Assembly (NCBI GenBank): GCA_000165345.1 | Contig: CM000434.1 | Location: forward strand, 800,001-864,000 | Reading direction: 5' to 3' | Length of the DNA stretch: 64,000 nucleotides | Shown here: one piece after another, positions 9,474 to 56,600 of the stretch | How the letters are laid out: each line of letters begins with the position of its first letter | How positions within the stretch are numbered: the first letter of the stretch is position 1 | Position numbers and translations under genes: made by a program | Notes under the pieces: model-generated | The model's database searches: none | What the model saw: only the letters and a program-made list of their open reading frames with translations | Told to the model about the DNA's origin: nothing

Positions 9474-11816
9474 TTAGTTTCCTGACACATTTTGGTCTTG
9501 AAACTGAGTAGTAGTTTGAGCCTTTAGTTGATCTTGTACTTTAGACTTTGAATCCGATTGAGTCACTGTCCTTTGAGAATCTGTTGTTACACCTTGGGCA
9601 CTGTTATTAGTAGTGGTAGTAGTAGAGGTATTAGTAGCAGTTTTAGTGGTAGTTGTACCAGTATTAGCACCAGTAGTAGTGGTAGTAGCAGTGGTAGCAC
9701 CAGTATTAGCAGTAGTAGTAGAAGTATAGCTTGAATCAATTTGTGCCATATACTCTTCTTTGTATGTAACCTTTGAATCTTTGTCTGTGGTTACAATAGT
9801 GACTGTTGCTGTTCTTGTAGTTTCTCCAGTTTTTGTGCCAGTTGTAACATTCTTTAATGATAAATCACTAACATATCCTGAAATATCCATGCAGGCATTA
9901 ACATTAGTAGATGAATCGGTAGTGGTAGTTTTATTAGTTTGAGTAGTGGTAGCTTGACCAGCAGTAGCTTGACCAGCAGTAGCTTGGCCAGTAGCAACTT
10001 GGCCGGTAGTAGTTTGACCAGTAGTAGCTTGAAAAGTGGTAGCTTGGCTGGCGGTACTTTGAGAAGCAGTAGTTTGGGAAGCAGTAGATTGAGAAGTAAT
10101 AGTTTGAGAAGTAGTAGTTTGAGAAGTGGTAGCTTGACCGGCAGTAGTTTGAGTAGTGAAAGTAGAAGGAACAGTAGTAGTAGTAGTCATCCTACTACAA
10201 TCTTGGAAAACTTGATCAACAGTAGTAACTGTTGATCCATCAGCTTTAGTGACAAAAGTTTCTGTTCTTGTAGTTACACCATCTACATTACCTGATGCAA
10301 ATCTTGTGGTTGTTTTTGTAACAGTTTCACCTGATTGAGTATTTGTTGAAACTGTCTGGTCAAATGTTTCTTCAGTCTTTGATGTCTGCTTTCCATCAAC
10401 AGAATAAGTTTCTCTTGTAACAGTTCCTTTGTAACTTTTTTCTGTAGTTCCAGTTTGTACAGGAGTAGTACTAGTAGTAGTAACACACTTTGTTCTGTCA
10501 GTATTTGTTTGTTCCTTCTTTGAAGTATAAGTACCATCAGTTTGGTAAGTTTCAGTAATTTTGATTTGTGTCTTTCCACTCTGAGTTGTTTCATATTTTA
10601 CACCACATTTACCATAAGTTGTTTGACTAGGTGTTTGAACTGCTCCATAGTAAACCTGAGCACCGTTGAAATCTTGATCAGCCTGCTGATTGTTCTGTTC
10701 AGTTTGTTTTTGTTTTTGTAATTGTTTTCTTGCTTGGTCTTGGCCTTGAATGGATGTTTCATATCCTGCACCTCTCATTGTTTCCTGGCATTTTGTCTGT
10801 TTACTATTGACTCCAGAATAACCATTATTTGCCACAGATGTGTCAGTTGTTTCTTTTGATACTTCAATATCTATTTGTCTAGAGGTAATTGAACCATTGC
10901 TAAATGTTTCAGTCATTGTTGTAGTAGTTTCAGTTTTTGTTGGTGCTTGATAAACAAAAGTCATTGTATTATCTGTTGTATCAAAGTAACAAACCTGACT
11001 TGTAACTGCTTCAGACTGAGCAGTTCCTGCTTTACAAGTGGTAGCAGAAGCAGTCATATTTGATGTACTTTTTTTGGCACTTTCACTAGAAGGTTTCACT
11101 TCTTGGGTAGTAACAGTCTTTGTAGTTTTTACTTTCATTGTTGTACTTGTTACATCTTCAGTACTAGTCTTATTAACAGTCTTTTGAATTTTCATACCAG
11201 AATCGAAAACCGTTTCTGTATTTACTGTTGAAGTGTTAGTTACTGTATTATTCTCACCTTGTTTTTGAGTACCTGTTGTTGCAGTTTTCTTAAATGTAGT
11301 AGTAGTAGTAGTAGCACCAGTTGTGAAACCAGAAGTATCAGTAGTACCAGTAGTGCCAGTAGTACCAGTAGTAGTGGTAGTGGTGGTAGTATTAGTATCA
11401 GTAGTGGTACCAGTAGCACCAGTAGTGGTAGTGGTGGTAGTAGTAGTAGTACCAGTAGTGCCAGTAGCACCAGTAGCACCAGTAGCACCAGTAGTAGTTC
11501 TGGTAGTAGTTCCAGTAGTGTTAGTAGAGCCAGTAACACCAGCAGCACCAGTAGTAGTGGTCTCTGGAGCTGTAAAAGTAACCTTACTGTAAGATTTAAT
11601 GCTACCAGAAACTGAAACTGAAGATGCAGAATCACACACTCCTGTTGTAGTTGTAGTTGTAGTCGTAGTTGTAACGTCACCAGATGTTTCAGTACAGACC
11701 TTCTTTGATTGTTCTTCCTTTGCTACGTCAGAAGGACGCTTCTTAGTTTGTTCGCTTGTCATATTTGTTTCGCAGTTGGTTTTATATTGATTTGGTGATG
11801 AATTTTCTACTTCCAT
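9474..11816 (-). CDS. Thr/Gln-rich mucin-like protein, 780 aa, with internal tandem repeats
   Basis: The ATG at 11816-11814 was verified. The protein contains poly-Thr runs and about 14 degenerate hexapeptide repeats of the form T[AT]SQ[AST]T (ATAGQ, ATTSQ) encoded by 18-bp tandem units at about 9939-10200. TTGATGATG-type repeats lie at about 11290-11580. No obvious N-terminal signal peptide follows the called ATG. Confidence 0.65.
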   Translation of the reverse strand: MEVENSSPNQYKTNCETNMTSEQTKKRPSDVAKEEQSKKVCTETSGDVTTTTTTTTTTGVCDSASSVSVSGSIKSYSKVTFTAPETTTTGAAGVTGSTNTTGTTTRTTTGATGATGATGTTGTTTTTTTTTTGATGTTTDTNTTTTTTTTGTTGTTGTTDTSGFTTGATTTTTTFKKTATTGTQKQGENNTVTNTSTVNTETVFDSGMKIQKTVNKTSTEDVTSTTMKVKTTKTVTTQEVKPSSESAKKSTSNMTASATTCKAGTAQSEAVTSQVCYFDTTDNTMTFVYQAPTKTETTTTMTETFSNGSITSRQIDIEVSKETTDTSVANNGYSGVNSKQTKCQETMRGAGYETSIQGQDQARKQLQKQKQTEQNNQQADQDFNGAQVYYGAVQTPSQTTYGKCGVKYETTQSGKTQIKITETYQTDGTYTSKKEQTNTDRTKCVTTTSTTPVQTGTTEKSYKGTVTRETYSVDGKQTSKTEETFDQTVSTNTQSGETVTKTTTRFASGNVDGVTTRTETFVTKADGSTVTTVDQVFQDCSRMTTTTTVPSTFTTQTTAGQATTSQTTTSQTITSQSTASQTTASQSTASQATTFQATTGQTTTGQVATGQATAGQATAGQATTTQTNKTTTTDSSTNVNACMDISGYVSDLSLKNVTTGTKTGETTRTATVTIVTTDKDSKVTYKEEYMAQIDSSYTSTTTANTGATTATTTTTGANTGTTTTKTATNTSTTTTTNNSAQGVTTDSQRTVTQSDSKSKVQDQLKAQTTTQFQDQNVSGN
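9939..10200 (-). repeat. 18-bp tandem coding repeats, about 14 degenerate copies, inside the mucin-like gene
   Basis: Recurring GGTAGCTTGACCAGCAGTAGCTTGACC... units encode the T[AT]SQ[AST]T hexapeptide array on the minus strand. Confidence 0.75.
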
Positions 11817-12204
11817 TTCTTTTAATTCTTCAGCTCTTTAAACGTTATATTAAAACAAGAATTTTACTTCTTCTCTTAAAATGCTGTAATATTAAGGTTT
11901 AAAGCAATATTTATATTTATATAATAAATAATAACCTTGTTATTCCAAAGATTAAACAAAGGTTTTATATTACCTTGAATTGAAATATTTTTAATATTTC
12001 TTTAGCAATTCGTTTTATTGTAAACTTATTAACAATTTTTACTTGAAGTTATTACATAGAAAAAAAAAGAAATTAGTTATTTATTATGCTCTTTTTCGAG
12101 AATTAATTAATATTCAAGTTTAATTTATCTGAATTCATTTGAATTAATAAAAAAAAGAAAGTAAGAGGGGGTGAGCATAAGCAAAATAATTACTGACAAC
12201 TAAT

Positions 12205-12290
12205 TGCATGCGCATGTACTTGCATTATCCACATGCGCATGAATTGCATACTTTCATATATCGGAGTTTACTAACAAAACTGACGTAATA
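12205..12290. promoter_or_regulatory. Composite module (TGCATGCGCATG ... TTATCCACATGCGCATG ... TGACGTAA) upstream of the mucin gene
   Basis: A tandem GCATGCGCATG/CCACATG cluster lies at 12205-12251. A CRE-like TGACGTAA is at 12281-12288. The module sits about 400 bp 5' of ATG 11816. Confidence 0.45.
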
Positions 12291-12428: not shown

Positions 12429-13160
12429 CTAATATAATAATGGAGCATCCTCAAGATGCATACCTCTACATATTGGACAATTTAGTCGATCATGTTTAGG
12501 TCCTAAACATCCGCAAGTCTCTGCTGTTTTATCTATTGCATATTCAGAGTCGCAATTTCTAAGATCATTTCTCAATTTCCTTGCTTCCTCAACAGGATAA
12601 CTCTTACATTCAGAAAATACAACTCCACACCTATTAGTAATCATCTCAAATATTTCTCTCCTATTTTCTTCTGAATCAATATTTGATTTTGAAGGAATAT
12701 ACTCTAAGTTTCTTTCATTATCCAAAATTTCTTCTTCTAAATTCTCATCTAATGCAACTAAACTATTCTTTGTAGATTGTTTACTTAAAACAGTTCCAGA
12801 ACGTGTTGGTTGTTTTGAGATTGTTGAATCTTTTCTTGAAGGTAAAGAAATATAGGAACTTTGATAAACTATGCTTCCTTCATCATTTACTCTAATTGAT
12901 TGTTCAGTTGCAAGTCTTAAAGCTTCAGCCTCTGCTATTCTATCAGCTTCTGCTCTAGCCATCATAAATCTTGTATTATCACTCTCAATATCCATAAATG
13001 TTGAACTATTCATTTTTCTCATTGAATTCAAAGAGTCCAAAATTACTACACCTTCTTCTAATTCTTGTTTTGTTAAAATATCCTCTGATAATGATGGGAA
13101 CTTTCCCATCCTACCTGAAAATGCTTCATATGTTTGTGGGACTGATTGTTTACCACCCAT
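12429..13160 (-). CDS. Hypothetical protein with an N-myristoylation consensus (MGGKQS) and a C-terminal Cys cluster
   Basis: The ATG at 13160 was verified. The N-terminus MGGKQSVP fits the MGxxxS myristoylation motif. The C-terminus reads CETCGCLGPKHDRLNCPICRGMH, a zinc-binding-like cluster. Confidence 0.5.
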   Translation of the reverse strand: MGGKQSVPQTYEAFSGRMGKFPSLSEDILTKQELEEGVVILDSLNSMRKMNSSTFMDIESDNTRFMMARAEADRIAEAEALRLATEQSIRVNDEGSIVYQSSYISLPSRKDSTISKQPTRSGTVLSKQSTKNSLVALDENLEEEILDNERNLEYIPSKSNIDSEENRREIFEMITNRCGVVFSECKSYPVEEARKLRNDLRNCDSEYAIDKTAETCGCLGPKHDRLNCPICRGMHLEDAPLLY

Positions 13161-19696: not shown

Positions 19697-23896
<4,200 letters not shown>

Positions 23897-48385: not shown

Positions 48386-48644
48386 GGCCCCACAAAATAA
48401 TGGATTTACATGTATTAGCATACGTAAGAAATAATATTAACGAAAAAATGGGATATTTCGTCGGTGATTAGAGTGGAATACGTATATAAGATATGGACGT
48501 AAGGTAGGAGAAATATTATGTTGAAGATATTTTAAGTTTTAATGTTATAGAATTATTAATCAGTGATATTTGGTGTGATTTTGTTTTTGAGATTTCAATT
48601 AAGGAAAAAAGTAAATAATCAAAAGATTGATAAGAGATAAAGAT

Positions 48645-50372
48645 ATGAAGATTTTTACGGAAAAACTGGCTGTATTTATTGCCGTCTTGGTAATATTAAT
48701 TTCGAATATCTCATGCAATAAAGAAATTGAAATCCCTGAAGATGTTACAAAATTGAATGATGACAACTTTGAAGAATTCATTGATGGAAATAATCTTGTA
48801 CTAGTATTATTTTATGATTCTTCCACTACTTCAAAAAATATAATCCATGGTCTTGGATATGTTTACTCAAACGTAGTAATGTCAAAAGGAACAGGAAAAA
48901 TTGCTGTTTTAAATTGTGAGGAATCTTCAATTCAAAAGAAATTTGAAATTCACCATCCTCCAAAGCTGCTATTCTTTTTTGGAAGTATAAACAAATTTGA
49001 GGCATATCCAAGCCATCTAACTGGTTTGGAAAGAGAATCAATGATTTCGATTATCCTTGCAAAAGAAAATGCTCTCTTCATTGAACATGATGCCAGAGAT
49101 AGTGAATCATTGGAAAAGGCTATGATAGAGTTTGACTTGGAAACAAAAGTTCGCTCCTCCAATCTCCCTGTTATTGTTTATTATGGTAAACCAGGTACTA
49201 AGAGAACTGATGTCGTAAAAAACACACTCGAAAAGTTAAGACTAACTGGAGTTTCCGTTAAAGCATTCATTATTTATGTTAAATACAAGGCCGATATTGG
49301 ATTACATATTTATAGATTGCCTGATTCAGATAAGCATGACTCTATGAATATTCAGCCAAAAGAACTTTATATTGCAAAGAAAAAGATCTTGGGATTATTA
49401 GAGTGGAACAAAGATATTTTATCTGTCTTTATTGAAGCTTGCATAAGGCCATATGTCTCTTTTAAAGGTAATGAAATTATGTATGTACACGAAAGTTCTA
49501 ACTCTTTAATAGCTTTCCTTAAGGGAAGCAACACTCTAGATCGGTATGGATCTAGCAATATTCAGTACTTAGATCATGATTCAATGGAATCTTTGAGAGC
49601 TTTTGCAAAGGCTAACTTTTTCCCAGAAGATCCAGATAAGGATTTAATGATTGGGCTTGTATTACCAGGATTAGAACAGGAGGTAGAAAACTTTACTGGT
49701 TTTCGAAGGGATGCTCATGTGAATGATGGAACCTTCCTCTTGAAACTTCGACAATCCAAATTTGAGCTTGGGAACTCCGGGAAGTCTGATAAATTCCTGC
49801 TTACTGAAGGGGAAATTAAAAAACATGGATTTGAATATTTACTTTCTCAGGCTAAGAATAGAAAATTACCCATTTTTTATAAAAGTAAGAGAATAATGAA
49901 ACAGCAAAAGGTCTCTGCTAGTGTTGAACAATATTTCACAACCCCATATCATTTTCTTGAGCTAAATCCTTCTTCCATCAGAGAGCTAATCCAAGACCCA
50001 AATAATGCACTGATAGTCCTTTACTATTCTGAAATGTGCTCAGGGTGCATGGATCTCCTTCCAATTTGGAACTCGATCTCTTCAAAAATTGCTTCAAAAT
50101 TTGGAAAAGATTCCAAATTCCGTGTTTTTGTCTCCGCTTTCGATGTAGAGTTTAATGACAATCCAATTGATATGCAAATTGAGAAAATTCCTTTAGTATA
50201 CTATTTCCCATTTGGAGAAGATAAAGTTTCCAAGATGTTCTTATATGATGAGGAAATAACCTCTAAAACTGTTACTACATTTATAACTGATAGAGTTCTA
50301 GAGGTTTCTGAAGATAATGATCAAGCTGAGCAAAATATTAGTCCGGATTCTCAAATCAGGGATGAGCTTTAA
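48645..50372 (+). CDS. Secreted thioredoxin-fold protein (PDI-like), with one degenerate and one CSGC-containing domain. The ORF-track start at 48627 is TTG; the first ATG is 48645.
   Basis: The signal peptide MKIFTEKLAVFIAVLVILISNISC follows ATG 48645. The first thioredoxin-like domain (LNDDNFEEFIDGNNLVLVLFYDSS) lacks CxxC. A later domain has YYSEMCSGCMDLLPIW, a CxxC active-site-like motif. Confidence 0.6.
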   Translation: MKIFTEKLAVFIAVLVILISNISCNKEIEIPEDVTKLNDDNFEEFIDGNNLVLVLFYDSSTTSKNIIHGLGYVYSNVVMSKGTGKIAVLNCEESSIQKKFEIHHPPKLLFFFGSINKFEAYPSHLTGLERESMISIILAKENALFIEHDARDSESLEKAMIEFDLETKVRSSNLPVIVYYGKPGTKRTDVVKNTLEKLRLTGVSVKAFIIYVKYKADIGLHIYRLPDSDKHDSMNIQPKELYIAKKKILGLLEWNKDILSVFIEACIRPYVSFKGNEIMYVHESSNSLIAFLKGSNTLDRYGSSNIQYLDHDSMESLRAFAKANFFPEDPDKDLMIGLVLPGLEQEVENFTGFRRDAHVNDGTFLLKLRQSKFELGNSGKSDKFLLTEGEIKKHGFEYLLSQAKNRKLPIFYKSKRIMKQQKVSASVEQYFTTPYHFLELNPSSIRELIQDPNNALIVLYYSEMCSGCMDLLPIWNSISSKIASKFGKDSKFRVFVSAFDVEFNDNPIDMQIEKIPLVYYFPFGEDKVSKMFLYDEEITSKTVTTFITDRVLEVSEDNDQAEQNISPDSQIRDEL

Positions 50373-50543: not shown

Positions 50544-50595
50544 GTGCAGCACGTGCATGCGCATGTTTGCGCGGGGATTGGGCGGGAAAATTTGC
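50544..50595. promoter_or_regulatory. GC-rich island GTGCAGCACGTGCATGCGCATGTTTGCGCGGGGATTGGGCGGGAAAATTTGC between two convergent 3' ends
   Basis: It contains CACGTG, GCATGCGCATG and an E2F-like GGGCGGGAAAA, yet it lies between the PDI-like stop (50372) and the giant gene's stop (50601), where no promoter is expected. Confidence 0.4.
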
Positions 50596-50600
50596 TCTTC

Positions 50601-53600
50601 TTAAGTTGTAAACTTGAAAAAGGTTAATATTGCAAGTGGTGTAAAAATATAAAGACAAAACCCTGACAATTTTTCTGTTATATCAAATCCACAAATCTTA
50701 AGCAAAGGTGGTGTTGAGTTAATTACAAGTAGAACCTTCTCTATCACAATATAAATCCCTGCTCCTGGTGGAGTTCTATGTAAAATATTTTGCAACCAAG
50801 AATGAGTTCTTACTGATGTTCTGTTTATTTGATAAAGTAGCCTTATTACATATGAAGAAAAAATAAACATAACTATTCCCATTGTTAGAAAAATTGTCTC
50901 ACAATTTGAATAAGTATTGATCATATTATTTTCTGAAGATGATGGAATTGTTCCTTGATAAGATAAATATGAAGTTGCATATTGAGGAATTGTTAACATA
51001 AATGAAAGAGCTGAAGTTTTAATGTTTGATATACTTGCTAGATTTGAATATGTTAATGTTGAATGTGAAATTACTGGATTATTATCATTGTTATTCATAC
51101 CAGAACGTATTGATCTCATCAAATTTATATTATTTATAAAATTGTTGGTACCTTCTCCTGGAATATTAGTATAATAATGATCATTTAAATCTATCATTGA
51201 TGATATATCATTATATTTATTCATATTATAATTATCCTCATTATTTGAGTTTAAAATATAATCAATATTTGAAATTGAATCCATAAATTGATTTTTATTT
51301 GTTGAAAAAGATCCTGTCTTAAAAAAGTTATTCATAAAATGATCCCCTATTGATCTTGAATTTAACTCATTTAACAAATTTGTACTAATTCCTCCACCTA
51401 TAATATTTGGAGATGTAGTTAATATTCTTGAAATATCTTTATCAAAAGAACCTCTTACAATATTTGTTGAACCAGAAGCTGATAATCCATTCAAATTTTG
51501 ATTTGAACTTGGATTCTTACTCAACATTGTAGAAGATGAAAGATCTGAAACTCGATTATTATATATTCTATTCTTTTTGTTATATATTGCAACAAGCATA
51601 ATTTTCCCAATACAAAAGAAAATTAAAGTATTTATAGATACAGAAGCATTTAAGAAAGATGTCCAAAGCTTTGTATTCTTATAAAGGATATGTTGTATTG
51701 CACTTCTCCAATAACTAACAATTTGAATAAATTCTTGAACATTTGAATATTTAAATTGGGTTGGAATATGTTGAACTAATACAATACAAAGTCTTTTTCT
51801 TTGTTTCACAAAGAATAATAAAATAATCAAACCTTTCAAAATCTCAAAAATTAAGTTGGAAATCCAATATGTAAATATACATTCAATAATATAAACTGTT
51901 ATTGGAGATTTATTATAAAGGAAATATAAAGTTGAATCCCTTATTAAATATGAATTACTTTTAAATAATGTTATTGATATATTTGATGACATTGCCACAA
52001 TACAACTTATTATCTTGCAAGTAATAACAACATTAAAGTATTCATATGGAGTATTATAACTCACTTCATCCACTAATCGATATAATGGTTTATGAATCTG
52101 ATTATTAGTTACAACATTTCCAATATTTGTTCTAATATTATCACAACTTAAATTATCTTCTGCACTTGAAATAATGTTCCTAATTTTTCTTAATCTAATA
52201 GATCTTTTAACTTGGTTATTACTTTTTATGAAATTATTAAAGTTATCATTAATACTTGGAATTTTTTTCTGCCGTTTAGAATTAATATAAATACTTGTTT
52301 TACTTGATATGTTAGTATCACTTTGATATATTTGTTGTGTATTTTTTATTCTATTACAATAATTAGATAAAACTGACTTAAAACGTTTGTTTGCTGTGTT
52401 ACTTCGGGTTATTCTAATAGCTGGACCACTCAAAGTTGAACAAAATTTATCATTTACTAACCCAAAAGATGAAGATTTTGAAGAATTAATGTCAAAAGCA
52501 ATATTAATATCATTTGATTCAATTTTTGAATTATAATTTTGAATCCAAGGTGTTCTCAAATATTTATCTCCTGAGCTAGTATCATTAGAAATGGTTGAAG
52601 TAATTGATAATAAATCAGGCAAACAAATATATTCTCCTCCTGTTGAAGATTTTTTTACTTTAACTGAACTTTTCTTCATTACTTTCACTTTATTTACTTT
52701 AGAATGATTTGGATTTAATTTTATCCTATTGATATATTTATCATCATCATTTTTTTTTGTTATAGATTCTAAATCTGAACCAAGTGAATTTGTATCTTCA
52801 TTTGATTCACTCGAACTCAAATTCTCATCATCCGCAAAGTTATTATTTTCAAAATATTTTGAAGATGATGATGAATATGAGGTAAAACGAGAATAAGATC
52901 TCGATCCAAAAGTTGTCACATTTGAAGAAGAAACTCCCAATAAATTAAACCTTGCAGTATTTGGTGAAGAAAAATTAGATGAAGAATCTGGTTGAGAAGT
53001 TACTGAACAACCATTTACTTCATTTGAATAAGAATGACTGGCCTTTGTGTTAATGTAGTAATTACTAGTTGAAAAACTTGATCCTGATTGACTATTATTT
53101 AATTCTGATATAAAACTCCCGCCAAATCTATGATGCACTTGTGCATGTAACTCCGGTATTAAATCCATATGAGACTTATTTCTAGAACTTAATTTTTGAC
53201 TTGATAATTTTTGTGGAATCAACATATTTGGTGAAATTTCAATTTGATTGTCTAAGATTGGAACTTCACTATTAATTTTATTATTAGAATTCTTGTCAAT
53301 ATCACTTTTGTCGCAATCAAAGTCATAGTCATACTCATTATTATTATTATGACTGAAATAGTTGTTTTTAATTAAAGTACTTGAATTCATTGCACAGTTT
53401 AAAAGGTTTGAATATATATTTCTGATATTTTTTCTGTTTTCTACAGATTTCTTATAATAGTAATAATTATATAAGTAATATTCTTTAGAAAATCCACAAA
53501 AGTATTTGTTACAATAGTTGGAAACAAATTCATGTGTGTAATATATTCTAACACTTGAACAGAGTGTGGCTGTGATAATGACTCCAATTAAGAACCATAT

Positions 53601-56600
53601 ATAGTCATATTCACTAATTAGGAAAAGTATCGTGAATAAGTAAATTAATGAAATAATTTGTATGAAGAAGAATAAGTATTTGATAATAGACTGAAGATTT
53701 GTATTTTTTTGAGAGTTTTTTTGCTTAAAATAATTCATTGGAGCATTCAACAAATTACTCTTTGTAGTTTTAATAGTATTCATAGACTTTTTATCCTTAA
53801 TATTTTCTTTTAAAGAGTTATCCTTATAAATATACCAAGGTGATGTGAAAATTAAAGACAATGCCAACAATACTGAATCAATGACTTTTCCTGATGCAGA
53901 TACTGGGAAAATTTCTGCAAAATCTCTTAATCTAAATACAGAATATGGCAATGTATTTAAAAAAGCTTTTCTCGTATATTTGAGAATATTTTTTGTTAAT
54001 AACTGAATTGATGATTTTGACTTAAAATTTGAATTTTGGCTTTCATTAGTTACACCCGATATTCCTCTTTTTTTTTCTTTTTTATTTTGTCTGATTAACC
54101 CACTTTTTGTTTTTTTATTTGAATTTATTTTCTTTTTAATCTTTTCCTTACTCCAATCGTTTATCATGTTTTTGATATAAAAGACTTTGAGATATGATAT
54201 AATTGCCCAAAGTAATATGTAAATTATAGATGTCAATAGAATTGCAGAAGAAACTCGAATAGCTGATGGAATTATATGATTATGAGGACTTGTATTTAAT
54301 AAAGTAATGAATTTTGCTTTTTTAGCCAATAGTTCTTCAAACGTAGTATATGAACTTGATTTATCACAGATTGGATGTTTATTCATCATTCCATAAAGTT
54401 TACTTCTACTTATTAAGGGACCTAAATCAGTAACATTAGCTTTAGCTGGTATTTCTGGTATGTAACCAAGATGAATTTTTTGATAATCACTATTTAGACT
54501 TGGAATATAACATTCAGTTTTTTCACCAATACATTGAGAATCTATCAGCAATGTACTGGATGGATCAAATTCATGTTCATGATCTTGACTAAAAATCATG
54601 GGTACCCATAAGACCTCTTTTATTTGCATAATATTACAAATGTTTGGTAGCTCTATTAAGCAGTTACCCAAATATGTATTTATTCCCATTTTTTTATCCA
54701 TCTTTTTATATAATGCATCAATTCCAGTTTCATGTGTAGGTGTTGTTTCCATATTATCTTGACCAAAATAGTCAAAGTCGTCCAATATTCCTTGTATCTT
54801 CTCATTTAAATTGTTGCTTTGAGTATTTTCAATAGCATCATTAATATTTAGATTCTCTAATCTGTTTTTAAGAGTATGAAGTCCTTGAATCTTTGAAAAA
54901 TCCACGTTCTTTCCTAAGAAGAGTTCAGCTTCATTATTTCTTGGATAATTACAGGTGGAGTTCTGTAAAATTTTGATAATATGTTCAAAACTACTGGAAC
55001 GTACAAATTTGGTCATTTCTGGAGACAATAATTGTTTTACTAGATTGATAGCTTCTCCTAAAGAATCAGTTTTTCGATATTCTGTTTTAGTCTTTGATAA
55101 ATTAACTAATTCATCATTTTTGTCAGTATAATTTTGGAAAAGTTTAGTCTTTTGAGAAAAAATGGTGTCAAAGTTACTAAAAATAGATTCATATTCTCCG
55201 CTAGTATCGTGTTGAGAAATATGATCATCTTCTTCAAAATAACCTCTTCTCATTTCACTTCTCACAAAATTCATTTGTTCTTCAAGTTCATTCTGCTCGT
55301 CCAGCTCATTCTGTTTTTCCACTTCCTTATTGTTTTCAGTAAAATCAAATTGATACTGCAAAAAGAAATCGCGACTAAATTCTGGATTAGAGTAAATACT
55401 ACCTTCAACGGAACTACTGCTCTTTACTTTCTCATTAAAAGTAGTATTTTCTAGCTTTACTGAAACATTTACATCTCTTCCATTTGAATCAGAAGCTGTC
55501 AAACTTTCATTAATATACTGGAAGATTTTATTGTGTTCAATACTATTAATTTTAGCCAAATTATCTAGCTCAGTCTCATCTGAATCAGTCTCTGAATTAG
55601 AATCAATTTCACGAATTTCTCCTTCAATACCATTCGAAAGAATAATAATTCTAACCAAAAGTGTAACGGGAATAGCCATCAAATCATCTAAATTTGGAAA
55701 TTCTGGAGGTAATGAACCCAATAATCTGGAAGCAACTTGGATACTCACTTCTGATGAGTAATCAAGACTTGAAAGTACTTCTGATAGTGTCTGGACTCTT
55801 CCTAAAAGAATATTTCGAATAATATCATCCTTTCCTAAAATTGTTGCAGTAATAAGAGCATGCTGTAATGCATGAATACACCAAAAGCTTTGTAACATTG
55901 CCTCCCTTAATATTGACTGTAATACCACTTTTGACGTATAATTTTTATTTAATAAAAGTAGTAATGATAAGATCGAAATTGAATTATCATACTCTGAAGT
56001 ACCTATAATAGGTATCGATCGTGGTGTAGGAATTGAGTACCTTTTTAAAGGCTTACAAAAACATCTCACGACAAATGAACTGACGTGGAAGTCTATGGCT
56101 GGTGATGAGAGATATTCAACAATTTTATGTTCACCTGTAATATCGTTTCCTGAGCTAACCGCAAGTTCGTACCAAAGAGTTGTATTGGTTTTTGGATTTT
56201 GAAACATAAGCATTTCCTCGAGAATTTGGAACTTAGGCAACTTATTGTTATTGTTTCCAGAAAATTTGAACTCATTAATTTGATCAAACTCTTCAAACAT
56301 TTTAAAAGATTTTTTACTGCTAATAGTTGGTTTATATAAAAGTGAATTTTCTTTATTAAGTTCTCTGCTCTCTTTTAACATCAATTCCTCCTGATAATTG
56401 ATTTTGTAAATAAGGTGGCCAATAGGAAGGTTCCCATATATATCAGGTTCATGAAGTTCGCAAAGTTCAAAATCCAATACCCCAGTATTAGTCTGAAACT
56501 TGTAGAAACTAACCAAAATCCTAATCAGATCTTCATCTCCAAGATGAGCCATCCACCAAAGCAAGTTCCGGCCTTCATTATCCCTAACAATGCATATATC

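What the first reader, a model, noticed from the sequence alone, without database searches (positions are those of the whole stretch)
9474..11816. Mucin-like Thr/Gln-rich gene with two internal tandem-repeat arrays and no signal peptide at the called ATG
The 780-aa product is dominated by Thr runs and two arrays. One is T[AT]SQ[AST]T hexapeptides (18-bp units near 9939-10200) and the other is TTGATG-type repeats (11290-11580). These regions are probably heavily O-glycosylated and prone to length polymorphism. Apicomplexan mucins normally start with a signal peptide. Here the first ATG gives an acidic, polar N-terminus (MEVENSSPNQYKTNCETNMTSEQTKKR) and the in-frame upstream sequence hits a stop. 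Either this is an intracellular Thr-rich protein or a small 5' exon encoding the signal peptide is missing.
Basis: partly seen in the sequence, partly recalled or inferred. Interest (0 to 1): 0.5.

Follow-up and report, generated by a model that had tools for sequence, protein, structure and literature searches.

The report
Non-secreted Thr-rich female-gamete protein
This is the Cryptosporidium parvum gene cgd6_3460: a threonine-rich repeat protein that looks like a mucin but has no route into the secretory pathway, is switched on about 4000-fold only in female gametes, is present in oocysts, and has repeats that differ in length between isolates; its function has not been studied.

Summary
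The 780-aa ORF (9474-11816, minus strand) is real. qPCR primers published for cgd6_3460, an annotated 'uncharacterized protein' on C. parvum chromosome 6, map inside it. Its tandem arrays exceed a codon-shuffle control. The Q-containing array has 15-bp pentapeptide units, not the 18-bp hexapeptides reported, and a third Thr array was missed. The called ATG is the true start. MEVENSSPNQ...KKRPSD...EEQSKKVC is conserved in nine Cryptosporidium species (dN/dS 0.07-0.14), and in-frame stops lie upstream in the three species checked. The one signal-peptide-like upstream ORF is frame-broken in C. meleagridis. No orthologue has a hydrophobic segment, so this is not a classical secretory mucin and the missing-exon idea is rejected. 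Array 1 varies among assemblies (780/799/804 aa in C. parvum; 767/770/773 in C. hominis). C. meleagridis lacks array 2, and C. ubiquitum has an array at another position. In C. andersoni only the N-terminal module is homologous. Published data show essentially no mRNA before 36 h and in sporozoites, log2 CPM about 14.5 in sorted females (logFC 12), and protein detected in oocyst lysate. Best reading: a genus-restricted nucleocytosolic protein made in macrogametes and carried into oocysts. Its biochemical role is inferred, not shown.

The parts
9474..11816 (-). Complete single-exon CDS of cgd6_3460 (780 aa plus stop)
   Evidence: ORF. The same start is called in 4 C. parvum assemblies. Mauzy 2012 qPCR primers for cgd6_3460 map to 9886-10000.
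11688..11816 (-). Conserved N-terminal module, residues 1-43: ME[VLI]EN[SA]SPNQ ... KKRPSD-x(6-8)-[ED][ED]Q[SAP]KK[VA]C. It has two basic clusters 10-12 aa apart, and no signal peptide.
   Evidence: Conserved in 9 species including C. andersoni. dN/dS is 0.07-0.14. AF2 pLDDT is below 35, i.e. predicted disordered.
11643..11672 (-). T10 homopolymer run (residues 49-58)
   Evidence: TRF (GTTGTA)x5; translation.
11289..11558 (-). Array 1: T-G-[AT]/T-T-G tripeptide (9-bp) units in 27/54/60-bp higher-order repeats. This is the length-polymorphic minisatellite.
   Evidence: TRF. Indels of 19-24 aa among C. parvum assemblies and 3-6 aa among C. hominis assemblies all fall here. Short-read contigs break inside it.
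10842..11249 (-). Polar beta-hairpin module A (residues about 190-325), including the conserved CYFD..NTxTF..PTKTETTTTxTETF(S)NG
   Evidence: AF2 strands with pLDDT 64-88; invariant columns; hairpin motif TETFSNG.
10617..10799 (-). Gln/Lys-rich segment with a predicted helix (QDQARKQLQKQKQ...). Its length varies between species.
   Evidence: AF2 helix at 357-377 with low pLDDT; alignment.
10170..10577 (-). Polar beta-hairpin module B (residues 414-549): three T-E-T-[YF]-x(1-4)-D-G hairpins (TETYQTDG, RETYSVDG, TETFVTKADG)
   Evidence: AF2 pLDDT 72-87 in two independent runs. The motif is conserved in C. parvum, C. hominis, C. meleagridis, C. tyzzeri, C. ubiquitum and C. canis. dN/dS is 0.4-0.5.
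9939..10148 (-). Array 2: 14 pentapeptide (15-bp) units x-T-x-[SGTF]-Q. It is specific to the C. parvum/hominis/tyzzeri lineage.
   Evidence: TRF period 15, 12.9 copies; register shown. It is absent as a 57-aa gap in C. meleagridis and differs by one unit in C. hominis.
9735..9818 (-). Conserved C-proximal hairpin (TTRTATVTIVTTDKDSKVTYKEEY)
   Evidence: AF2 strands 667-694; conserved as far as C. ryanae and C. bovis.
9582..9728 (-). Thr tract 3 (33-bp period). Its length varies between species.
   Evidence: TRF 9608-9727; indels between C. parvum, C. hominis, C. meleagridis and C. tyzzeri.
9477..9581 (-). Conserved Gln-rich C-terminal tail ending Q[DN]QNV[SP]xN
   Evidence: Conserved in all intestinal-clade orthologues and absent from C. 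andersoni.
11838..11840 (-). In-frame TAA 8 codons upstream of the ATG
11884..11973 (-). Candidate 90-nt 5'-UTR intron (AAG|GTAAT ... ATTACAG|CAT). Inferred only; it cannot add coding sequence.
   Evidence: GT/AG is conserved in 4 species within a very conserved upstream region. No transcript data were available.
12203..12241 (-). Upstream 25-bp unit CATGCGCATGTGGATAATGCAAGTA, 1.5 copies, carrying the palindrome CATGCGCATG twice. Putative promoter element.
   Evidence: It has 1.5, 2.5 or 3.5 copies in three C. hominis assemblies.

Best explanation
The ORF is cgd6_3460, a Cryptosporidium-restricted orphan protein that stays in the nucleus/cytosol rather than entering the secretory pathway. It is transcribed almost only in macrogametes (female gametes), at very high level. 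The protein is made there or in the zygote and carried into the oocyst.

The architecture is as follows. (i) A 43-aa N-terminal module is conserved across the genus. It has two basic clusters (KKRP ... KK) 10-12 residues apart, and I infer it is a targeting or regulatory handle (bipartite-NLS-like and/or a basophilic-kinase site). (ii) The body is extremely hydrophilic and Thr-rich. It consists of polar beta-hairpin modules (T-E-T-[YF]-x-D-G turns) joined by low-complexity linkers. (iii) A short Gln-rich C-terminal tail follows.

The tandem arrays are in-frame minisatellites sitting in the linkers. They expand, contract, appear and disappear by replication slippage or unequal exchange with little constraint, which gives the length polymorphism.

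Because the protein cannot reach the Golgi GalNAc-transferases, any glycosylation of its Thr tracts would have to be nucleocytosolic (C. parvum has an OGT).

Shown: gene identity, the true start, absence of any signal peptide or transmembrane segment, conservation pattern, repeat instability, female-specific mRNA, and protein in oocysts. Inferred: nucleocytosolic location, the role of the N-terminal module, beta-rich structure, and any glycosylation or protective/structural role.
For: Identity: Mauzy 2012 primers for cgd6_3460, cgd6_3470 and cgd6_3450 map to the ORF and its neighbours. The C6-3520 primers anchor the window on chromosome 6.

Start and no signal peptide: the same Met and the same motif occur in C. 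parvum, C. hominis, C. meleagridis, C. tyzzeri, C. ubiquitum, C. canis, C. felis, C. ryanae, C. bovis, C. xiaoi and C. andersoni, in conserved synteny. Upstream in-frame stops were found in the three species checked. dN/dS for residues 1-43 is 0.07-0.14, against 0.4-0.9 elsewhere in the protein. The best 19-residue hydropathy is 0.73 or less in every orthologue, and GRAVY is -0.76 to -1.44.

Lineage restriction: a profile of the core searched against 1.84 billion representatives finds only Cryptosporidium sequences plus one spurious PKD-hairpin match. Pfam gives no hit.

Modular evolution: in C. andersoni only the first ~45 aa are homologous. C. ubiquitum carries a large TGATG array inside the core. 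C. meleagridis lacks array 2.

Expression: qPCR reads about 0 up to 24 h, 3e-7 at 36 h and about 1e-4 at 48-72 h. RNA-seq FPKM is 0-2.5 in oocysts and sporozoites, about 0 at 2 h and 24 h, and 310-804 at 48 h. In sorted cells, log2 CPM is 2.5 in asexual stages against 14.6 and 13.9 in females in vitro and in vivo, a logFC of 12.06, comparable with COWP1 and COWP8.

Protein: it is quantified by TMT-MS in excysted-oocyst lysate.

Structure: AF2 predicts long antiparallel strands with pLDDT 70-88 in two runs.

OGT in C. parvum: Banerjee et al. 2009, as cited in PMC6939170.
Confidence: 0.6

Rival explanations
1. It is a classical secretory mucin whose signal peptide lies in a small, unannotated 5' exon.
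For: The Thr-rich tandem arrays resemble gp900, gp40/15 and the CpMuc proteins. A GT...AG pair 90 nt apart lies upstream (11884-11973). A hydrophobic upstream ORF, MWIKCCLYITSVLLV, exists at -497.
Against: The exon-2 side of the candidate intron still contains the in-frame TAA at -24. The hydrophobic upstream ORF is frame-broken by a 2-bp indel in C. meleagridis. The N-terminal Met and the following 43 residues are conserved at protein level in 9 or more species, with the lowest dN/dS in the gene. C. ryanae has no AG within the last 24 nt and has a TAA at -18 (inspection of the upstream sequence printed). All independent annotations call the same single-exon gene.
Confidence: 0.04
2. It leaves the cell by an unconventional, signal-peptide-independent route, or is released when the residual body breaks down. 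It then becomes an extracellular component of the oocyst interior or wall, for example tether or matrix material.
For: Its expression profile and amplitude match those of COWP1 and COWP8. The protein is present in excysted-oocyst lysate and changes about 1.8-fold when COWP8 is deleted. Its composition is mucin-like.
Against: It has no hydrophobic segment and no C-terminal GPI-type signal. Tandel 2019 notes that most female genes assigned to wall synthesis have a predicted signal peptide. The N-terminus begins with Met-Glu or Met-Gln, typical of cytosolic NatB substrates (established knowledge). Whole-oocyst lysate does not distinguish wall from cytoplasm.
Confidence: 0.12
3. It is specifically a nuclear protein of the macrogamete or zygote. 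It is imported through the bipartite-like KKRP...KK motif, and its SQ/TQ-rich array acts as a cluster of phosphorylation sites for ATM/ATR-type (PIKK) kinases during meiosis.
For: Two conserved basic clusters lie 10-12 aa apart in all species. There are 8 [ST]Q sites within 100 aa in C. parvum and C. hominis. The gene is co-expressed with the female meiotic and DNA-repair programme (Tandel 2019).
Against: The SQ/TQ array is absent from C. meleagridis and is not conserved in C. ubiquitum, C. canis or C. andersoni. The classical bipartite rule is not met. No DNA- or chromatin-binding domain is present. A log2 CPM of about 14.5 is unusually high for a regulatory nuclear factor.
Confidence: 0.15
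4. It is a fortuitous low-complexity ORF, or a fast-decaying gene with no selected protein function.
For: dN/dS is 0.4-0.9 over most of the length, against 0.03-0.2 for neighbouring genes. There are large indels, and the body is completely replaced in C. andersoni.
Against: The reading frame of 633-856 codons is kept open in every intestinal-clade species. The N-terminus, C-terminus and hairpin motifs are conserved. The mRNA is very abundant and tightly regulated. The protein is detected by mass spectrometry.
Confidence: 0.04

Closest known systems
Cryptosporidium secretory mucin-like glycoproteins (gp900, gp40/15 = gp60/cgd6_1080, CpMuc4/5)
   Same: Both have Ser/Thr-rich in-frame tandem arrays, length polymorphism between isolates, and restriction to the genus.
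   Different: Those proteins have an N-terminal signal peptide (plus a GPI or transmembrane anchor in some), are O-GalNAc-modified in the secretory pathway, and are made for the invasive stages. For example, cgd6_1080 reads tens of thousands of FPKM at 24 h. cgd6_3460 has no hydrophobic segment in any species and is female-specific.
Nucleocytosolic Ser/Thr-tract glycoproteins: substrates of OGT (C. parvum has one, Banerjee 2009) or of SPINDLY O-fucosyltransferase in Toxoplasma
   Same: Both lack a signal peptide and carry long homopolymeric or low-complexity Ser/Thr tracts in predicted disordered regions. The transferase is reported to be present in the organism.
   Different: No modification of cgd6_3460 has been shown. 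Known SPY and OGT substrates are mostly nucleoporins, transcription factors or mRNA-processing factors with recognisable domains. This protein has none.
Female-gamete oocyst-wall proteins (COWP1/cgd6_2090, COWP8/cgd6_200)
   Same: They share the same on/off expression pattern and similar amplitude in sorted females, and the protein persists in oocysts.
   Different: COWPs have signal peptides and are Cys-rich (a Cys every 10-12 residues, PMC12548878). cgd6_3460 has 10 Cys in 780 aa, no signal peptide, and is Thr-rich.
Hydrophilins / LEA proteins of dormant stages (including LEA-domain proteins of Toxoplasma oocysts; recalled, not tested)
   Same: Both are cytosolic, very hydrophilic and low-complexity, and are induced while a resistant stage is being built. 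Composition is conserved more than sequence.
   Different: There is no LEA Pfam match. The strict hydrophilin criteria (Gly above 6% and mean hydrophilicity above 1) are not jointly met by either C. parvum or C. andersoni. The core is predicted beta-structured rather than helical or disordered.
Chromosome-6 micro/minisatellite typing loci (gp60, CP47, MSC6-7, C6-3520 and others; Li et al. 2013)
   Same: It is an in-frame coding tandem repeat on the same chromosome, with copy-number differences between assemblies.
   Different: It is not among the 32 loci used in that study, and no population data exist for it. The neighbouring gene cgd6_3520 (window 19697-23896) is the published marker.

Membership tests
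Apicomplexan secretory mucins | N-terminal signal peptide or other means of ER entry | tested here: not met
   The N-terminus is polar and acidic in 9 species. The best 19-residue hydropathy is 0.73 or less anywhere in any orthologue. No dedicated predictor such as SignalP was available.
Apicomplexan secretory mucins | Ser/Thr-rich tandem-repeat domains | tested here: met
   TRF arrays score 129-208 in the window scan. On the ORF alone the best score is 218, against a maximum of 86 in 100 codon shuffles. Thr is 32% overall and 38-55% within the arrays.
Apicomplexan secretory mucins | Mucin-type O-GalNAc glycosylation | not testable with these tools
   This needs lectin blots or glycopeptide MS. 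It is disfavoured because ER/Golgi entry is lacking.
Apicomplexan secretory mucins | Membrane or GPI anchor, or secretion from zoite organelles; expression in invasive stages | tested here: not met
   The C-terminus ...QFQDQNVSGN is polar. mRNA is about 0 in sporozoites and at 2-24 h.
Nucleocytosolic O-glycosylated Ser/Thr-tract proteins (OGT/SPY substrates) | No signal peptide, plus long Ser/Thr tracts in disordered regions | tested here: met
Nucleocytosolic O-glycosylated Ser/Thr-tract proteins (OGT/SPY substrates) | The organism encodes the transferase | not tested
   Literature only: Banerjee et al. 2009, cited in PMC6939170.
Nucleocytosolic O-glycosylated Ser/Thr-tract proteins (OGT/SPY substrates) | Demonstrated O-GlcNAc or O-Fuc on the protein | not testable with these tools
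   This needs immunoprecipitation followed by anti-O-GlcNAc, sWGA or AAL blotting, or MS.
Classical bipartite NLS | KR-x(10-12)-K[KR][KR] or K[KR]x[KR] | tested here: not met
   KR-PSDVAKEEQS-KKVC: the first cluster and the spacing fit in all species (10-12 aa), but the second cluster has only two basic residues.
Hydrophilins / LEA | Gly above 6% and mean hydrophilicity above 1; LEA Pfam domains | tested here: not met
   C. parvum has Gly 7.2% but GRAVY -0.84. C. andersoni has GRAVY -1.44 but Gly 4.6%. There is no Pfam hit.
SQ/TQ cluster domain proteins | At least 3 SQ/TQ within 100 aa, conserved among orthologues | tested here: inconclusive
   There are 8 in 100 aa in C. parvum and C. hominis, but only 3 in C. 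meleagridis and 1 in C. andersoni. The array is lineage-specific.
Outer-membrane beta-barrels (top fold-search hits) | Amphipathic strands with a hydrophobic membrane-facing surface; closed barrel | tested here: not met
Coding VNTR / typing locus | In-frame repeat with copy-number differences among isolates of one species | tested here: met
   C. parvum assemblies give 780 (3 assemblies), 799 and 804 aa. C. hominis assemblies give 767, 770 and 773 aa. All differences are multiples of 3 bp within the array 1 region. Population-level variation was not tested.

The most novel reading that the evidence does not exclude
cgd6_3460 is a 'cytoplasmic mucin'. In this reading it is an abundant Thr-rich polymer, densely O-GlcNAc-modified by the parasite's nucleocytosolic OGT. 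It would be laid down in the macrogamete and retained in the oocyst (sporozoite or residual-body cytoplasm, or the nucleus) as a water-structuring protectant or matrix. It could then contribute to the oocyst's resistance to desiccation, freezing or osmotic stress. The genus-conserved 43-aa N-terminal module would be the handle that localises or regulates it. The body would be selected for composition only, which would explain its wholesale replacement by a Ser/Asn-rich sequence in C. andersoni.
Probability: 0.1. Interest if true: 0.7.

Novelty: new member of a known kind. Interest (0 to 1): 0.35.

Why it matters
Oocyst formation is the transmission step of Cryptosporidium, and female gametes make the materials for it. 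cgd6_3460 is among the most strongly induced and most abundant female transcripts, on a par with COWP1 and COWP8. Even so, no main text in the searched library discusses it. It is restricted to the genus and breaks the usual pattern for highly expressed female genes of this parasite, most of which encode secreted wall proteins. Recognising that it is not a mucin prevents mis-annotation as a surface antigen or vaccine candidate. It also redirects the question to what a non-secreted Thr-rich protein does in the zygote and oocyst. On the practical side, array 1 (11289-11558) is a candidate length marker. The tightly regulated upstream region, with its conserved repeated CATGCGCATG element, is a candidate female-specific promoter for reporter constructs.

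Tried and rejected
1. Exact look-ups of the 780-, 799- and 804-aa proteins in the 15-billion-protein collection found nothing. The gene was identified by other means.
2. A homology search with the non-repeat core alone returned no hit at E <= 1e-3, a wasted search. The full-length query had found only four distant Cryptosporidium orthologues, because Thr-rich words saturated the candidate list.
3. Pfam on the protein gave no family. A PDB sequence search with the N-terminal module gave only chance hits with E > 0.6.
4. The profile search gave one non-Cryptosporidium hit, P0010. It is a prokaryotic PKD-repeat protein matching a single DG hairpin nine times. I rejected it as analogy, not homology.
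6. I guessed gene IDs from position and searched the main texts, with no hits. I tested whether the locus was the published 'Mucin1' or C6-3520 marker. It is not: the C6-3520 primers map 8-11 kb away, in the 1399-aa ORF.
7. The hyperLOPIT paper, the single-cell atlas and Chatterjee 2010 are not held, so no localisation data were obtained.
8. The strict hydrophilin definition and the classical bipartite-NLS rule were both checked and not met.
9. CATGCGCATG occurs only once more in the window, at 50556, and not in a promoter position. No conclusion was drawn from this.
Full report
What is in the sequence

The window is Cryptosporidium parvum chromosome 6. The neighbouring 243-aa ORF is identical to CAD98387, EAK89968 and QOY41232. 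The locus sits at about 806.6-809.0 kb of CP029785.1.

The ORF 9474..11816 (-) encodes 780 aa beginning MEVENSSPNQYKTNCETNMTSEQTKKR. Its composition is 32.1% Thr, 9.4% Ser, 7.9% Gln and 7.2% Gly, with only 11.8% L/I/V/F/M/W.

Tandem Repeats Finder reports arrays at 11296-11558 (periods 9/18/27/54/60, scores up to 206) and 9935-10157 (periods 15/30/45, scores 129-208). It also reports a third array at 9608-9727 (period 33) and a (GTTGTA)5 run at 11644-11673. In 100 codon shuffles of the ORF the best TRF score averaged 45.5 (maximum 86), against 218 for the real sequence. The arrays are therefore not just a composition effect.

The Q-containing array reads in a five-residue register (ATTSQ TTTSQ TITSQ STASQ TTASQ STASQ ATTFQ ATTGQ TTTGQ VATGQ ATAGQ ATAGQ ATTTQ). 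The in-frame stop upstream is a TAA 8 codons before the ATG.

Which gene it is

Li et al. 2013 (PMC3810731) named chromosome-6 markers after gene numbers and published their primers. The C6-3520 and C6-3520' primers match the window exactly at 20280-23281, inside the 1399-aa ORF 19697..23896.

Mauzy et al. 2012 (PMC3305300) list qPCR primers per gene. The cgd6_3460 pair maps to 9886-10000 inside the target ORF. The cgd6_3470 pair maps to the 243-aa neighbour, and primers for cgd6_3440, cgd6_3450 and cgd6_3480 map to the flanking genes. The finding is therefore cgd6_3460, annotated 'Uncharacterized protein', OrthoMCL group OG5_153841. No paper in the searchable library mentions this ID in its main text.

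Is the ATG the real start, and is there a hidden signal peptide?

I recovered the orthologous locus from eight further species. It lies in conserved synteny: Stk19-like, RRM, a small ORF, the 243-aa gene, the target, Ebp2, then a 189-aa ORF. The species and protein lengths are:
- C. hominis, five assemblies: 767-773 aa
- C. meleagridis: 726/727 aa
- C. tyzzeri: 764 aa
- C. ubiquitum: 856 aa
- C. canis: 714 aa
- C. felis: 672 aa
- C. ryanae: 633 aa
- C. andersoni: 263 aa
. C. bovis and C. xiaoi proteins also came from the database.

Every one starts M-[EQ]-[VLIF]-E-N-[STA]-S-[PQ]-N-Q and carries KKRPSD (NKRPSD in the bovis clade). Six to eight residues later come [ED][ED]Q[SAP]KK[VA]C.

Residues 1-43 have the lowest dN/dS in the gene: 0.07 against C. 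hominis and 0.14 against C. meleagridis. The beta core gives 0.4-0.5 and the arrays 0.5-0.9.

In-frame stops lie upstream in C. parvum (-24), C. ryanae (-72) and C. felis (-171). The one upstream ORF that looks like a signal peptide (MWIKCCLYITSVLLV, -497) is shifted out of frame by a 2-bp indel in C. meleagridis.

A conserved GT...AG pair 90 nt apart (11884-11973) could be a 5'-UTR intron. The sequence 3' of it still contains the TAA at -24, so it cannot contribute coding sequence.

No orthologue has a 19-residue window with mean Kyte-Doolittle hydropathy above 0.73, and GRAVY ranges from -0.76 to -1.44. There is no signal peptide, no transmembrane segment and no GPI-type C-terminus.

The 'missing exon' reading is therefore rejected and the 'intracellular Thr-rich protein' reading is supported. 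No dedicated signal-peptide predictor could be run.

Anatomy and evolution

A profile of the non-repeat core searched against 1.84 billion cluster representatives returns only Cryptosporidium sequences. The single exception is a prokaryotic PKD-repeat protein that matches one DG hairpin nine times, which is analogy rather than homology. Pfam gives nothing.

AlphaFold2, run on a shallow 5-sequence alignment, predicts residues 1-98 and 551-780 as disordered. It predicts long antiparallel strands with pLDDT 70-88 over about 100-240, 290-323 and 414-549. A second run on the core alone reproduces this.

The low-complexity arrays sit between these modules and are evolutionarily fluid:
- Within C. 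parvum, all length differences fall in array 1 (780 aa in three assemblies, 799 in BX526834, 804 in CM109966). One of them is an exact duplication of a 20-aa stretch.
- C. hominis assemblies differ there by one or two TTG units.
- C. meleagridis lacks array 2 entirely, as a 57-aa gap.
- C. ubiquitum has a roughly 170-aa TGATG-type array inside the core, at a position where C. parvum has a short linker.
- In C. andersoni the whole body is replaced by a Ser/Asn/Lys/Asp-rich sequence with 9% Thr. Only the first ~45 residues remain detectably homologous (BLASTP E 6e-6 to 6e-10, nothing elsewhere).

The one element conserved across the genus is therefore the N-terminal module, attached to a very hydrophilic body whose sequence is free to change.

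Expression and protein evidence (published supplementary data)

- Mauzy 2012 qPCR, normalised: zero to about 1e-7 at 2-24 h in all but one replicate, 3e-7 at 36 h, 5-9e-5 at 48 h and up to 3e-4 at 72 h.
- Matos 2019 RNA-seq: 0-2.5 FPKM in oocysts and sporozoites, about 0 at 2 h and 24 h, and 310-804 FPKM in the five 48-h samples.
- Tandel 2019 sorted populations: log2 CPM averages 2.5 in asexual stages, 14.56 in females in vitro and 13.85 in females in vivo. The logFC is 12.06. It is listed among the top 500 genes of females both in vitro and in vivo. For comparison, COWP1 has logFC 10.9 and COWP8 13.5. That paper also states that cultures sexualise after 36 h.
- PMC12548878 S7 Table: the cgd6_3460 protein is quantified by TMT mass spectrometry in lysates of excysted oocysts. 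Its mean log2 intensity is 20.67, similar to the proteasome and ribosomal proteins in the rows seen. It is about 1.8-fold higher in delta-cowp8 oocysts.

The gene is therefore translated. Its mRNA is macrogamete-specific, and the protein persists into the oocyst after the mRNA has gone.

How it most likely works

Shown: the protein has no route into the ER, is made in female gametes at high level, and is present in oocysts. Only the N-terminal module is conserved across the whole genus, and the C-terminal tail and hairpin motifs only within the intestinal clade. The arrays are unconstrained, slippage-prone linkers.

Inferred: it is nucleocytosolic. The N-terminal module is a localisation or regulatory handle. 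Its two basic clusters 10-12 aa apart resemble a bipartite NLS but fail the classical rule for the second cluster, and KKRPS also fits a basophilic-kinase site. The body acts through bulk hydrophilic, beta-prone properties.

Mucin-type O-GalNAc glycosylation is not expected. If the Thr tracts are glycosylated, the nucleocytosolic OGT reported for C. parvum would have to do it (Banerjee 2009, cited). This is untested.

I put about 0.85 on 'not a classical secretory protein, start correctly called'. I put about 0.6 on the whole nucleocytosolic-handle-plus-filler picture.

Rivals are:
- a missed signal-peptide exon (0.04);
- unconventional export to the oocyst interior or wall (0.12);
- a specifically nuclear meiotic protein using the SQ/TQ array (0.15, weakened because the array is lineage-specific);
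- a functionless ORF (0.04, contradicted by the expression, the MS detection and the conserved ends).

Comparison with known systems and novelty

The protein resembles Cryptosporidium mucins only in composition and repeat instability. It fails the defining features that could be tested: signal peptide, anchor and zoite expression. It shares its expression programme with COWPs but not their signal peptide or Cys-rich repeats. It resembles OGT/SPY substrates and hydrophilins in being cytosolic, low-complexity and Ser/Thr-rich. Modification is untested, however, and the strict hydrophilin and LEA criteria are not met.

The gene is annotated and its expression sits in public tables, so the locus itself is not new. 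What I did not find described in the searched library is the following combination: mucin-like composition without secretion, a genus-conserved N-terminal module, and a replaceable body.

I rate it a new member of a known kind (lineage-restricted low-complexity repeat proteins), with moderate interest of 0.35. It is a good candidate for tagging in female gametes, but nothing here overturns current understanding.

Noticed in passing
window 12203-12241 (minus strand), about 390-425 nt upstream of the ATG; L010, L011 and L013 for C. hominis: A 25-bp unit, CATGCGCATGTGGATAATGCAAGTA, carries the palindrome CATGCGCATG and is tandemly repeated in the otherwise highly conserved upstream region. It has 1.5 copies in C. 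parvum, C. tyzzeri and C. meleagridis, and 1.5, 2.5 or 3.5 copies in three C. hominis assemblies. It may be a copy-number-variable cis-element of a female-specific promoter.
   Followed up: partly
window 11884-11973 (minus strand): Candidate 90-nt intron in the 5' UTR (AAG|GTAAT...ATTACAG|CAT), with GT/AG conserved in four species. It cannot extend the CDS because a TAA lies at -24. No transcript data were available to test it.
   Followed up: partly
window 19697-23896 (minus strand): This 1399-aa ORF is cgd6_3520. The published C. hominis typing primers C6-3520 (TTA microsatellite) and C6-3520' (TAT) match exactly at 20280-21298 and 22299-23281. Li et al. 2013 reported C6-3520 as strongly differentiated between IbA10G2 and other subtypes (FST 0.42).
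   Followed up: yes
L024 8205-8996 (C. andersoni): The syntenic gene in the gastric species is only 263 aa, is Ser/Asn/Lys/Asp-rich (9% Thr), and shares only the first ~45 residues with the intestinal-clade proteins. The whole body of the protein has been replaced or lost.
   Followed up: yes
L025 7445-10015 (C. ubiquitum): A roughly 170-aa TTGATG/TGMTGAVG-type array sits inside the beta core, between two hairpin modules, rather than near the N-terminus. The same repeat type has therefore arisen or moved to a different linker.
   Followed up: partly
L005-L009 (Logan short-read contigs, DRR7292xx): All these contigs end 106-117 codons into the gene, inside array 1. Short-read assemblies cannot span this minisatellite, so allele lengths from such assemblies should not be trusted.
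   Followed up: no
PMC12548878 S7 Table (cgd6_3460-RA-p1): The protein is about 1.8-fold more abundant in delta-cowp8 than in wild-type oocyst lysate (logFC 0.83; the column labelled FDR reads 3.87, apparently -log10). The authors do not comment on it.
   Followed up: no
window 12429-13160 (minus strand), cgd6_3470: The 243-aa neighbour starts MGGKQS, which fits the N-myristoylation consensus, and ends with a Cys-rich CGCLGPKHDRLNCPICRG motif. It is Cryptosporidium-specific and highly constrained (dN/dS 0.03-0.13), with no Pfam hit.
   Followed up: no
window 9939-10235 (+), 11259-11615 (+), 11323-11592 (+), 11240-11680 (-): Long alternative-frame and antisense ORFs (Ser-, Leu- or Val-rich) overlap the arrays. 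They are by-products of the repeats, not genes.
   Followed up: partly
window 50556-50565: This is the only other exact CATGCGCATG in the 64-kb window. It lies between the 3' ends of two convergent ORFs (48627-50372 on the plus strand and 50601-57593 on the minus strand), so it is not in a promoter position.
   Followed up: no
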